Shown here one piece after another: positions 2,427 to 47,374 of a DNA stretch of 49,081 nt; position 1 is the first letter of the stretch; every line of letters starts with the position of its first letter. Location: the NCBI GenBank assembly GCA_038046425.1, contig JBBSWG010000014.1, positions 1 to 49,081 of the forward strand, given 5' to 3'. The notes beneath the pieces are model-generated. The model was not told the DNA's origin and ran no database searches. It saw only the letters and a program-made list of their open reading frames with translations. The stretch comes from Nanobdellota archaeon. GTDB lineage: Archaea; Nanobdellota; Nanobdellia; Woesearchaeales; GW2011-AR9. Position numbers and translations under genes: made by a program.

Positions 2427-2557
2427 AAGCGGGGAGAGCACCAACCCCGAGCGATACAAACTGAGTTGACCTCGGTTGCGGAGGGGGTTGTCCCTTACGG
2501 GGAGGTGCCGCACTAAGCTCTCTGAAGCGGAGAGCGAGGCTGGTGCTCTCCCCGCTT
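2427..2557 (-). repeat. 131-nt long imperfect palindrome, family A copy 1 (MITE-like or structured RNA)
   Basis: Perfect 17-bp terminal inverted repeats: AAGCGGGGAGAGCACCA at 2427-2443 and its complement at 2541-2557. The 43-nt core at 2472-2514 is identical, as reverse complement, to 47131-47173. Confidence 0.8.
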
Positions 2558-2575
2558 CCAGAGAAATTACTGAAC

Positions 2576-46870: not shown

Positions 46871-46947
46871 GTTTAAGAGAATTCTCGGTTTTTTAGATTA
46901 ACTTTTTATTTTTGCTTCATCTTCACTTCAGTAATACTTCACTATTC

Positions 46948-47083
46948 TGAAGCATGACCAGCATCCTAAGGTCAAAACTCCTGCGGGTTTAGAAGCAGGC
47001 GCGTCGCGGGGGGTTGCCCCCTATGGGGACGCAGCGCCTTTCGAGAACACATCAAGAGTTTTGAAGATGCTGGTCATGCTTCA
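46948..47083. repeat. 136-nt long palindromic element, family B
   Basis: The perfect 18-bp arms are TGAAGCATGACCAGCATC (46948-46965) and GATGCTGGTCATGCTTCA (47066-47083). Inner stems are TCAAAACTC/GAGTTTTGA and GGCGC/GCGCC. The core GCGGGGGGTTGCCCCCTATGGGGAC (47006-47030) is related to the family A core. Confidence 0.75.
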
Positions 47084-47086
47084 CGG

Positions 47087-47311
47087 GAAGCGGGGAGAGC
47101 ACCAGCCTCGCTCTGCGTTTCTTCTACCTCAGTGCGGCACCTCCCCGTAAGGGACAACCCCCTCCGCAACCGATATCAACTCCGCTTGTATCGCTCGGGT
47201 AACGAAGGACACAAATATTTATACCGATTAGTTGTGTCCTTCGAATATAATAAGTGACTATTGGTATAATTATTAGGGTCACTTATTATAAATTGGTGCT
47301 CTCCCAGCTTC
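47087..47311 (+). repeat. family A copy 2, carrying an insertion of about 94 nt
   Basis: GAAGCGGGGAGAGCACCA (47087-47104) pairs with TTGGTGCTCTCCCAGCTTC (47293-47311). The core at 47131-47173 is identical to the reverse complement of 2472-2514. Extra AT-rich hairpins lie at 47203-47243 and 47252-47284. Confidence 0.8.
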
Positions 47312-47374
47312 AGGATAGTGAAGTATTACGTAAAAAGTTAACTTTTAAAAATACCACCCTTTTTTACCGCTCTG

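What the first reader, a model, noticed from the sequence alone, without database searches (positions are those of the whole stretch)
47006..47173. A shared G-run / C-run / G-run core in two otherwise unrelated palindromic elements, present in opposite senses within one locus
- The family B core is GCGGGGGGTTGCCCCCTATGGGGAC (47006-47030).
- The family A core, read on its other strand, is GCGGAGGGGGTTGTCCCTTACGGGGAGG.
- Both follow the pattern G5-TTG-C3-5-YTAY-G4A, although the surrounding arms are unrelated.
- The central C-run can pair with either G-run, giving two mutually exclusive hairpins as in a switch. On the complementary strand one loop becomes a GNRA-type GUAA.
- In the 46.9-47.3 kb locus the two cores are in opposite orientation, so within a single transcript they could also pair with each other over about 20 nt.
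Basis: seen in the sequence. Interest (0 to 1): 0.6.

Follow-up and report, generated by a model that had tools for sequence, protein, structure and literature searches.

The report
Conserved three-stranded cap on archaeal hairpin transposons
The shared G-run/C-run/G-run core is real: it is a 21-base cap at the tip of every hairpin module carried by small non-coding transposons in one order of tiny groundwater archaea, and its variants change in threes, which fits a miniature triple helix and not the proposed two-hairpin switch.

Summary
Cores sit at 47009-47029 (+) and 47142-47162 (-), and a third at 2483-2503 (+). The genome, a groundwater Woesearchaeota-type DPANN MAG, holds 33 copies. All 34 hairpins that I found by their arms alone carry the core at the tip. 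Arms of families A and B show no similarity beyond chance.

The locus 46931-47329 is one composite MITE. Its 23-nt ends match an IS66-family (ISBst12-like) transposase element from groundwater metagenomes, and sister copies have 8-bp target duplications.

The core occurs in many genera of this order, with many different closing stems and ends. It was not found in 130 genomes of sister orders.

The switch reading fails. Hairpin 2 (C10-C13 with G17-G20) covaries, but hairpin 1 (G1-G5 with the C-run) does no better than shuffled columns. Instead G-run 1 covaries in mirror register: G1/C10/G20 becomes A1/T10/A20, and G2/C11/G19 becomes A2/T11/A19. This is the signature of G.G-C to A.A-T base triples.

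Best reading: a triplex cap on the fold-back, probably single-stranded DNA, form of the element. The fold is inferred and its function is unknown. Earlier notes of this scan had already called these repeats MITEs. The shared cap and its three-way covariation are new here.

The parts
46931..46953 (+). Left terminal inverted repeat (TIR X, GTAATACTTCACTATTCTGAAGC) of the composite MITE
   Evidence: Inverted repeat I1, 23 nt, 96% complementary. 51 copies in the genome. Identical ends flank a 452-aa DDE_Tnp_IS66 transposase in metagenome locus L232.
47307..47329 (-). Right terminal inverted repeat (TIR X)
   Evidence: Sister composites C21, C24 and C37 have 8-bp target-site duplications (TTTACTTA, TGACGAGC, TGTTTTCA). 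None is visible at this copy.
46948..47083 (+). Hairpin module B. Its arms carry AGCATCCTAAGGTCAAAAC...GTTTTGAAGATGCT, with a conserved asymmetric loop.
   Evidence: Inverted repeat I2, 18 nt, 100% complementary. 17 arm-defined copies, each with 79-82 nt between the arm motifs unless interrupted. Folds shown.
46999..47008 (+). 5' strand of the closing stem of core B (GCGCGTCGCG, with a GT-N/A internal loop three pairs below the core)
   Evidence: Covarying variants cgcg/cgca, tgct/agca, cgtg/caca, aatc/gata and aacg/cgta in other copies and genomes.
47009..47029 (+). Core, family B copy: GGGGGTTGCCCCCTATGGGGA (positions 1-21; T at position 16 where the consensus has C)
47030..47038 (+). 3' strand of the closing stem of core B (CGCAGCGCC)
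47078..47091 (.). Fusion joint GCTTCACGGGAAGC. It is what remains of two abutting inner TIRs (right end of the B element, left end of the A element).
   Evidence: Seen directly in the sequence. The inner parts of TIR X (GCTTCA / GAAGC) are kept on both sides, and the same joint is present in C21, C24 and C37.
47087..47311 (-). Hairpin module A, read on the minus strand. The outer arms are 47087-47104 and 47294-47311, and both arms carry GAGCGA.
   Evidence: Inverted repeat I4, 18 nt, 94% complementary. 17 arm-defined copies, each 90-92 nt between the GAGCG motifs unless interrupted.
47142..47162 (-). Core, family A copy: GGGGGTTGTCCCTTACGGGGA on the minus strand
47202..47291 (.). A further small palindromic element (two hairpins, 47203-47243 and 47246-47290) inserted into an arm of module A in this copy only
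   Evidence: Absent from sister composites C21, C24 and C37. Related copies at C4:1837-1926 and C68:2872-2961. Inverted repeats I7 and I8.
2446..2565 (+). Second family A hairpin of the window, with its core at 2483-2503 (+)
   Evidence: 88% identical to 47080-47199. Core match.

Best explanation
The core is the conserved tip of a class of about 110-nt hairpin modules. These modules form the body of small non-coding transposons (MITEs) in one order of DPANN archaea (Woesearchaeota-type).

Shown:
- It is always at the centre of the hairpin.
- It is closed by stems that differ freely in sequence but stay complementary.
- It is carried by MITEs with several unrelated ends. One end type, the one in this window, matches an IS66-family, ISBst12-like transposase element.
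- It is far more conserved than arms or ends across genera.
- Its variable positions change as two triads, 1/10/20 and 2/11/19, from G/C/G to A/T/A.

Inferred:
- In single-stranded form, C10-C12(13) pairs with G(17)18-G20 as a short hairpin.
- The 5' G-run lies in that hairpin's major groove, antiparallel to G-run 2, and forms G.G-C (or the isosteric A.A-T) base triples.
- Positions 5-9 are the return linker.
- The mirror-image fold (C+.G-C / T.A-T) on the complementary strand fits the covariation equally well.

Further inferred, weakly:
- The relevant form is DNA (a lagging-strand hairpin or an extruded cruciform) and not RNA.
- The compact cap helps the element. It could seed and stabilise the fold-back that brings the two ends together, or shield the hairpin tip from palindrome-cutting nucleases.

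It is not a two-state switch.
For: Position and obligacy: 34/34 arm-defined hairpins carry the core.

Covarying closing stems occur across genomes, for example gcgaca/tgtcgc, ggagca/tgctcc, cggatcc/ggatccg and gagcca/tggctc.

Spread:
- 12 of 61 relatives.
- Many Woesearchaeota/Nanoarchaeota-labelled MAGs.
- 0 real hits in 130 genomes of other orders of the class.

Mobility:
- TIR plus 8-bp duplications.
- The IS66-family partner with the same ends, which holds no core itself.
- An in-frame insertion in the valyl-tRNA synthetase gene that same-genus orthologues lack.

Triads, in an unbiased sample of 121 cores from 5 families:
- Positions 1/10/20 are GCG 90, ATA 26, other 5.
- Positions 2/11/19 are GCG 102, ATA 13, other 6.

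Triads, order-wide:
- About 144 of about 148 listed T10/A20 cores have A1. The pattern matched in 65 genomes of 52 genera, and 150 further matches were not listed.
- 22 of 22 T11/A19 cores have A2, in 14 genera.
- Both variant classes occur in all three closing-stem superfamilies and coexist with the canonical core in single genomes.

Formal counts on 49 distinct cores:
- Hairpin 2: 20 double changes against 5.4 expected.
- Columns 1-10/2-11/3-12: 19 against 5.5, 95.9% complementary, slid controls at most 79%.
- Hairpin 1: no signal.
- The six highest mutual-information pairs are exactly the two triads.

Geometry: a purine third strand antiparallel to the duplex purine strand with reverse-Hoogsteen pairing is the defined purine motif (review PMC7583470).

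DNA and not RNA:
- Core orientation relative to neighbouring genes is mixed.
- Isolated mismatches in the arms show no G.U preference on either strand: GT 23, AC 17, other 69.
- No Rfam family matches.
Against: - Only two independent covariation classes exist. No 3/12/18 class and no double class was found. Copies are related, so the counts overstate independence.
- Transfer of a whole core between elements could keep the three changes linked without selection.
- Single changes in G-run 1 alone exist: A1-, A2- and A3-only as a few copies each, and A4-only as 13 of the 121 cores, all in G113. A few G1/T10/A20 cores also exist.
- The connectivity is unusual. The third strand is joined to the pyrimidine strand, so a 4-5-nt linker must cross back over the helix.
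- No physical or expression data exist.
- The strand and the kind of nucleic acid are unresolved.
- No functional test of any kind bears on the proposed role.
Confidence: 0.5

Rival explanations
1. The same three-stranded fold, but working in RNA. The hairpin modules would be transcribed, and the cap would be an RNA tertiary motif. It could be a purine triple on the G-rich strand, like the tRNA 9-23-12 and 46-22-13 triples. Or it could be a classical C+.G-C / U.A-U major-groove triplex on the C-rich strand. It would serve transcript stability or protein binding.
For: - The covariation cannot tell DNA from RNA, or one strand from the other.
- Pyrimidine-motif triple helices are well documented in natural RNAs (PMC7583470).
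- The locus folds far better than shuffles as RNA, z = -11.2.
Against: - There is no orientation bias relative to flanking genes.
- The arms show no G.U-tolerant pattern on either strand.
- Composites carry the two cores in opposite senses, so one transcript cannot present both in the same sense.
- There is no Rfam match.
- Three or four consecutive C+.G-C triples are unfavourable at neutral pH, and purine-motif triplexes are reported to exclude RNA strands (Semerad and Maher 1994, cited in PMC7583470). Both points rest on my own knowledge of that literature.
Confidence: 0.15
2. The core is a sequence-specific binding site for a lineage-specific protein, such as a host factor or a transposition accessory protein. 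The triads would be co-inherited alleles, or would reflect joint protein contacts, and not nucleic-acid base triples.
For: - Near-invariant positions (T7, G8, C12, C16, G17, G18, A21) are not explained by pairing.
- The motif is restricted to one order, as a lineage-specific partner would predict.
Against: - Three core alleles coexist in single genomes, for example G113. That favours shape-preserving (isosteric) changes over base-specific reading.
- The mirror-register coupling does not fit the two-fold symmetry of dimeric DNA binders.
- Linker and loop positions vary freely within each allele class while the triad stays intact.
- No candidate protein was identified.
Confidence: 0.15
3. The core has no function. 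It would be a relic of common descent of all these hairpin modules, or a sequence spread between them by conversion, that happens to be slow to decay.
For: - MITE bursts give many near-identical copies.
- Nested insertions and recombination among these elements are rife.
Against: - Arms and ends have diverged beyond recognition between families and genera while the core is kept.
- Within the core, unpaired linker and loop positions vary (entropy 0.95-1.7 bits) while G-run, C-run and G8/C16/A21 positions do not.
- The preferred base at positions 1 and 2 depends on the 10-20 and 11-19 pairs.
Confidence: 0.12
4. One reading: a bistable RNA switch in which the C-run alternates between pairing with G-run 1 and with G-run 2.
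For: On the canonical sequence both helices can be drawn. RNAfold in fact picks G-run 1 with the C-run for several copies.
Against: - Hairpin 1 shows no covariation.
- The abundant A1/T10/A20 and A2/T11/A19 variants keep hairpin 2 but create mismatches in every antiparallel register of hairpin 1. Paired fractions are 0.78-0.86, against 0.96 for the parallel register.
- Only three C positions (10-12) are conserved, against nine G positions.
Confidence: 0.03

Closest known systems
Prokaryotic MITEs mobilised in trans by an IS, here the IS66 family, ISBst12 group (single-ORF transposase, ends starting GTAA/GTRA, 8-bp direct repeats; example ISDge4 in PMC12898284)
   Same: - 23-nt terminal inverted repeats starting GTAA.
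- 8-bp target duplications in sister copies.
- No coding capacity, and dozens of dispersed copies.
- Ends identical to those of a 1.59-kb element encoding a 452-aa DDE_Tnp_IS66 protein.
   Different: - The body is not a deletion derivative of the IS. The IS holds no core or hairpin module.
- The same hairpin-plus-core body is found between other, unrelated ends in this and other genomes.
- The centre, not the ends, is the most conserved part across genera.
Intramolecular purine-motif triplexes / H-DNA (R.R-Y; G.G-C and A.A-T triples, third strand antiparallel to the duplex purine strand)
   Same: - Mirror-related purine runs.
- The coupled change G.G-C to A.A-T at two layers.
- The antiparallel register of the two purine runs (definitions in PMC7583470).
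   Different: - It has only 3-4 layers.
- The Watson-Crick partner is an intrastrand C-run lying between the two G-runs, so the third strand joins the pyrimidine strand through a chain-reversing 4-5-nt linker instead of a simple fold-back.
- It is a conserved, dispersed, mobile-element motif and not a long homopurine tract.
- Formation has not been shown physically.
Base triples of the tRNA core (A9.A23-U12 alternating with G9.G23-C12; G46.G22-C13), the classic case of triples found by three-way covariation (from my own knowledge; tRNA-Phe triples are mentioned in PMC7583470)
   Same: - Purine.purine-pyrimidine major-groove triples.
- They are recognised through coupled G/C/G to A/U/A changes.
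- A strand that turns back into the groove of an adjacent short helix.
   Different: - The tRNA triples are isolated layers in a large RNA.
- Here there are consecutive layers in a 21-nt cap of a mobile DNA element.
- There is no sequence or functional relation.
REP/REPIN elements with RAYT transposases, and IS200/IS605-derived palindromic elements (PATEs)
   Same: - Short, dispersed, hairpin-forming, mostly intergenic repeats.
- For those families, single-stranded DNA folding matters.
   Different: - No Y1 transposase and no TnpB was found in the genome.
- There is no conserved 5' GTAG guide tetranucleotide.
- The elements here have TIRs and 8-bp duplications.
- The conserved part is the tip and not the stem.
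Rickettsia palindromic elements (RPEs) inserted in frame in protein genes (from my own knowledge)
   Same: One B-type hairpin with its core sits in frame, without stops, in a variable loop of the valyl-tRNA synthetase gene. It adds about 39 residues that orthologues lack.
   Different: - There is a single case here, in an archaeon, with an unrelated sequence.
- Most copies are intergenic.

Membership tests
MITE of the IS66 family (ISBst12 group) | Terminal inverted repeats matching those of an autonomous IS66-family element | tested here: met
   TIR X at 46931-46953 and 47307-47329 equals the ends of L232:1-1593, which encodes a 452-aa protein matching DDE_Tnp_IS66 (E = 8e-27), and of L276:1084-2619.
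MITE of the IS66 family (ISBst12 group) | 8-bp target-site duplication | tested here: inconclusive
   Met at sister composites C21, C24 and C37 and at C2:33028. No duplication is visible at the window copy itself or at L276.
MITE of the IS66 family (ISBst12 group) | Small, non-coding, multi-copy, with insertion polymorphism between relatives | tested here: met
   399 nt with no credible ORF. 51 TIR X copies in the genome. The ValRS insertion is absent in same-genus genomes. The 47202-47291 insert is present in this copy only.
Bistable RNA switch / riboswitch-like element | Two mutually exclusive helices, each supported by covariation | tested here: not met
   Hairpin 2 is supported. Hairpin 1 is indistinguishable from shuffled columns, and the common variants disrupt it.
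Bistable RNA switch / riboswitch-like element | Match to a curated RNA family, or a fixed position and orientation relative to a regulated gene | tested here: not met
   No Rfam hit at E up to 10, except a chance lncRNA match well outside both cores (47282-47372). Orientation relative to neighbouring genes is mixed.
Intramolecular purine-motif (R.R-Y) triplex | Purine third strand antiparallel to the purine strand of a Watson-Crick helix | tested here: met
   The covariation register is 1 with 20 and 2 with 19 (sum 21), while 10-20 and 11-19 are Watson-Crick (sum 30). This is inference from sequence only.
Intramolecular purine-motif (R.R-Y) triplex | Isomorphous triples G.G-C and A.A-T exchanged as units | tested here: met
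   Two classes, at layers 1 and 2. About 144 of about 148 listed cores and 22 of 22 conform. No variation occurs at layer 3, and layer 4 is not constrained.
Intramolecular purine-motif (R.R-Y) triplex | Physical formation (Mg-dependent melting transition, N7 protection of duplex purines) | not testable with these tools
   This needs oligonucleotide biophysics.
REP/REPIN-RAYT or IS200/IS605 PATE | A Y1 (HUH) transposase, or TnpB, in the genome | tested here: not met
   PF01797 and PF07282 gave no match in the 95.8%-complete genome, and the control genomes rang.
GNRA tetraloop hairpin (on the complementary strand) | A conserved G-N-R-A loop closed by a helix | tested here: not met
   Only family A gives GTAA. 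The other loop types give GTAG, GGAT, GTAT, GAAG and so on.

The most novel reading that the evidence does not exclude
The 21-nt core is a naturally selected intramolecular DNA triple helix. It would be a three-layer G.G-C/A.A-T cap that single-stranded or cruciform-extruded MITE DNA adopts, and that many unrelated transposon families of one archaeal order have kept because it promotes their spread or survival. Possible roles are to seed fold-back of the element so that its ends meet, or to make the hairpin tip resistant to palindrome-processing nucleases. That would be the first sequence-conserved, covariation-supported triplex motif in a mobile DNA element. The same 21-mer in a Streptomyces repeat hints that the fold may recur elsewhere.
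Probability: 0.3. Interest if true: 0.8.

Novelty: new variant of a known kind. Interest (0 to 1): 0.62.

Why it matters
MITEs are normally defined by their ends, and their interiors are treated as filler. Here the interior tip is the most conserved part. It is shared by elements with different ends across many genera of a poorly known archaeal order.

The tip carries a three-way covariation signal of the kind that revealed the tRNA base triples. If the triplex forms, it is a compact, testable nucleic-acid motif of 21 nt. It would be a rare natural case in which non-B DNA structure is under selection in a mobile element. It would also give a handle on how palindromic transposons persist in very small genomes, including inside an essential gene.

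In practice the motif is a precise marker for finding these repeats, which break assemblies of DPANN genomes.

Tried and rejected
- Rfam at a permissive threshold on the locus and on the Streptomyces look-alike found nothing.
- Viral contigs gave 9 hits, all in high-GC DNA without hairpin context, so these are chance matches.
- Two literature searches for DPANN/Woesearchaeota MITEs or palindromic repeats found nothing relevant.
- A third covariation class (A3/T12/A18) was sought. Hit counts equalled the controls, and the one candidate lacks a closing stem. A double class was also absent.
- G.T versus A.C asymmetry in the arms, meant to pick the folded strand, gave no signal. A loose count gave 353 against 412, and clean isolated mismatches gave 23 against 17.
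- The only IS in the genome itself is IS1182/IS5-like, at C14:56835-58395, with unrelated ends. It is not the partner.
- Y1 transposase and TnpB are absent.
- The idea that the core is itself a tiny nested insertion was rejected. It has no ends or duplications of its own, is always exactly central, and no arm-defined hairpin lacks it.
- Other readings I considered from the sequence and dropped because key bases or geometry are missing: K-turn, UNCG tetraloop (register 31 is contradicted by T10-A20), bulge-helix-bulge intron, group II domain V, and an ORB-like origin box.
- My first greedy palindrome extender was unreliable, and I replaced it with direct alignments.

Full report
**What is there**

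The window is contig C14:1-49081 of a 1.12-Mb, 76-contig genome with 46.6% G+C. Earlier notes of this scan call it a groundwater Woesearchaeota (DPANN) genome. The public records that share its repeats carry Woesearchaeota, Nanoarchaeota or plain 'archaeon' groundwater labels. Two of these records (isolates nzgw59 and nzgw58) match loci of the same-genus genomes G001 and G002.

The finding lies in the 505-nt gap between a 208-aa ORF and a radical-SAM gene.

The quoted sequences are exact. Core B is at 47009-47029 (+) and core A at 47142-47162 (-). The two are 18/21 complementary. A third core, of family A, is at 2483-2503.

**The locus is one composite transposon**

- 46931-46953 and 47307-47329 are 23-nt inverted repeats that recur 51 times in the genome.
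- The same B(+)/A(-) composite occurs at C21:40007-40314, C24:7986-8292 and C37:16071-16376. Each of these is flanked by its own 8-bp direct duplication.
- The joint GCTTCACGGGAAGC (47078-47091) is what is left of two abutting inner ends. The composite therefore arose from two neighbouring elements and now moves as one.
- 47202-47291 is a further small palindromic insert found only in this copy.
- A scan of metagenome contigs with the end sequence found its autonomous partner. L232:1-1593 has the same ends around a single 452-aa ORF that matches DDE_Tnp_IS66 (E = 8e-27). L276:1084-2619 is a frameshifted copy. Most other hits are such IS ends at contig breaks.
- Single-ORF IS66 elements (the ISBst12 group) with GTRA-type ends and 8-bp repeats are described, for example ISDge4 (PMC12898284).
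- The IS itself contains neither the core nor the hairpin modules.
- The genome's only own IS is IS1182/IS5-like and has unrelated ends.

**The core is obligate at hairpin tips, widespread in the order and more conserved than anything around it**

- The pattern GGGGGWTGNCCCNNNCGGGGA occurs 26 times in the genome, against 0 for the reversed control. There are 33 copies at up to 4 mismatches.
- I searched by arm motifs alone. All 17 B-type and all 17 A-type hairpins hold the core at their centre, with tightly conserved lengths of 79-82 and 90-92 nt.
- Arms of A and B align no better than shuffles.
- In other genomes the core sits between quite different, perfectly complementary closing stems, inside elements with other ends.
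- It was found in 12 of 61 relatives.
- At class level it was found in 4 of 20 genomes of the same order, but in none of 130 genomes of other orders, apart from one chance-like hit.
- A few public contigs labelled Methanosarcinales also carry it. I did not verify those labels.
- Viral contigs gave only chance hits.

**Testing the switch idea**

I number the core as G1-G5, W6, T7, G8, N9, C10-C12, N13-N15, C16, G17-G20, A21.

I searched five repeat-rich genomes from five families with a pattern that allows any purine or pyrimidine at the run positions. This gave 121 real cores, 49 of them distinct.

- Hairpin 2 (10-13 with 17-20) is supported. There are 20 double-change cells against 5.4 +/- 1.8 in shuffles (0 of 500), and the slid controls are much lower. 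The register 10-20, 11-19, 12-18 is fixed by T10-A20 and T11-A19. This excludes the UNCG-type register.
- Hairpin 1 (1-5 with 9-13) is not supported. It is 80.0% paired against 79.3% in shuffles, with 3 double changes against 4.5.
- No antiparallel register of G-run 1 with the C-run exceeds 0.86 paired. The parallel alignment 1-10, 2-11, 3-12 reaches 0.96, with 19 double changes against 5.5 +/- 1.7 (0 of 500).

**The triads**

- Positions 1/10/20 are GCG in 90 cores, ATA in 26 and anything else in 5.
- Positions 2/11/19 are GCG in 102, ATA in 13 and anything else in 6.
- The six highest mutual-information pairs of the whole core are exactly these two triads.
- Order-wide, the T10/A20 pattern matched in 65 genomes of 52 genera. 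About 144 of about 148 real listed cores have A1, and 150 further matches were not listed.
- All 22 T11/A19 cores, from 14 genera, have A2.
- Within each class the linker (TTG, ATG, ACG, TCG, AGG, TGG, AAG, TAG) and the loop vary freely.
- Both classes occur with all three kinds of closing stem, and they coexist with canonical cores in one genome.
- In this genome C20:17953 and C41:63 carry the A1/T10/A20 core. C20:17953 differs from the core of its closest arm relative, C2:5767, by exactly those three bases.

**Interpretation**

G-run 1 is coupled to G-run 2 in antiparallel register (1 with 20, 2 with 19), while the C-run is Watson-Crick paired to G-run 2. The coupled change is G/G-C to A/A-T.

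That is the definition of purine-motif base triples: a purine third strand, antiparallel to the duplex purine strand, with reverse-Hoogsteen pairing (PMC7583470).

A plausible fold has these features:
- The closing stem stacks on a 3-4-bp apical helix.
- The 5' strand continues up the major groove as G1-G3(4).
- G5 may pair with the conserved C16.
- Positions 6-9, with the invariant G8, return to the base of the helix.

The complementary strand could form the mirror pyrimidine-motif fold (C+.G-C / T.A-T) with the same covariation, so sequence alone cannot choose the strand.

*Caveats.* There are only two classes. Copies are related. Whole-core conversion could keep the changes linked. Some single changes in G-run 1 are tolerated, notably A4. 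The linker topology is unusual. Nothing physical has been measured.

**DNA or RNA, and function**

- Orientation of the cores relative to flanking genes is mixed.
- Clean isolated mismatches in the arms are random in type (GT 23, AC 17, other 69). They do not have the G.U-rich pattern of conserved RNA helices.
- The two cores of each composite face opposite ways.
- The elements are transposons, and one of them sits in frame inside the valyl-tRNA synthetase gene.
- Purine-motif triplexes are reported to exclude RNA strands (Semerad and Maher 1994, listed in PMC7583470).

I therefore favour a DNA-level structure, on transiently single-stranded or cruciform DNA, at modest confidence.

The core is kept in MITEs with unrelated ends, and the IS66-like partner lacks it. 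So it is not a transposase-binding site of that IS. I propose that it benefits fold-back elements in general. It could seed and stabilise the hairpin or cruciform that juxtaposes the ends, or protect the tip. This step is inference only.

A 45-100-nt mini-element (TATCGAAAA...) has landed inside the core in six copies, at two different points and in both families. This is consistent with an exposed tip.

**Comparison and verdict**

- The element is a MITE with IS66-type ends, and membership is largely met.
- It is not a REP/RAYT or IS200/IS605 derivative. No Y1 transposase or TnpB was found.
- It matches no Rfam family.
- The cap has no described counterpart that I could find.

The switch, the GNRA loop and the core-to-core pairing do not.

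Earlier notes of this scan had already classed these repeats as MITE-like selfish DNA. New here are the shared cap, its restriction to the order, the IS66 partner and the triad covariation.

Noticed in passing
G000:C3:10147-10259 (outside the window; gene C3:9474-12068, minus strand): A B-type hairpin with its core is inserted in frame, without stops, in a variable loop of the valyl-tRNA synthetase gene. It adds about 39 residues (SILRSKLPQIPEAGASRGVAPYGDAAPTENEARVLKML...) that orthologues in same-genus and same-family genomes lack. This resembles the Rickettsia palindromic elements.
   Followed up: partly
G000: C53:27880, C56:36153, C59:6855 (B type); C20:17746, C29:9959, C18:25219 (A type): A tiny palindromic element of 45-100 nt, starting TATCGAAAA and built around GCGAAGC-type mini-hairpins, is inserted inside the core itself. 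It sits in G-run 2 in the B copies and in the loop in the A copies. C56 carries a further nested insert.
   Followed up: partly
L232:1-1593 and L276:1084-2619 (groundwater metagenome contigs): A 1.5-1.6-kb IS66-family, ISBst12-like element (single 452-aa transposase) has the same 22-23-nt ends as the window's MITE. Most of the 70 metagenome hits to the end sequence are copies of it at contig breaks.
   Followed up: yes
G000:C14:56835-58395 (same contig, beyond the window end): An IS1182/IS5-like insertion sequence encodes a 469-aa transposase (DUF772 + DDE_Tnp_1_6). Its ends, CAGGCCGTCCCATAATTC, are unrelated to those of the MITEs.
   Followed up: yes
L018, L020, L031, L039, L087, L093, L105, L112, L124, L128 (Streptomyces genomes): A repeat found in several Streptomyces species and strains holds the identical 21-mer GGGGGTTGCCCCCTCCGGGGA. 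In the copies whose flanks are kept (for example L031, L087, L093, L124) it lies next to a hairpin (GGACGGGCTG...CAGCCCGTC), and both are closed by GTCCTCAAGC/GCTTGAGGAC. There is no Rfam family. It could be convergence, or chance in high-GC DNA.
   Followed up: partly
L034, L050, L057, L058, L061 (public MAG contigs labelled uncultured Methanosarcinales): Typical cores with gacaa/atgtc-type closing stems occur on contigs labelled Methanosarcinales, one of them 969 kb long. The labels were not checked, so this may be mis-binning or transfer.
   Followed up: no
window 47202-47291: A roughly 90-nt two-hairpin element is inserted in an arm of module A in this copy only. Relatives lie at C4:1837-1926 and C68:2872-2961.
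   Followed up: partly
window 46889-46908 and 47331-47350: A further 20-nt inverted repeat (80% complementary) lies outside the MITE ends. The composite may therefore sit inside yet another palindromic element, which could explain why no 8-bp duplication is visible at this copy.
   Followed up: no
G000: A-type arms, e.g. window 47105-47115 and 47186-47197; also L001, L003, L008: GAGCGA occurs on both arms of A-type hairpins as a direct repeat, not an inverted one, so the two copies face each other as a potential tandem G.A internal loop. A related CCGAGC-GAAGCGAG bulge lies near the ends of unrelated elements in other genomes.
   Followed up: no
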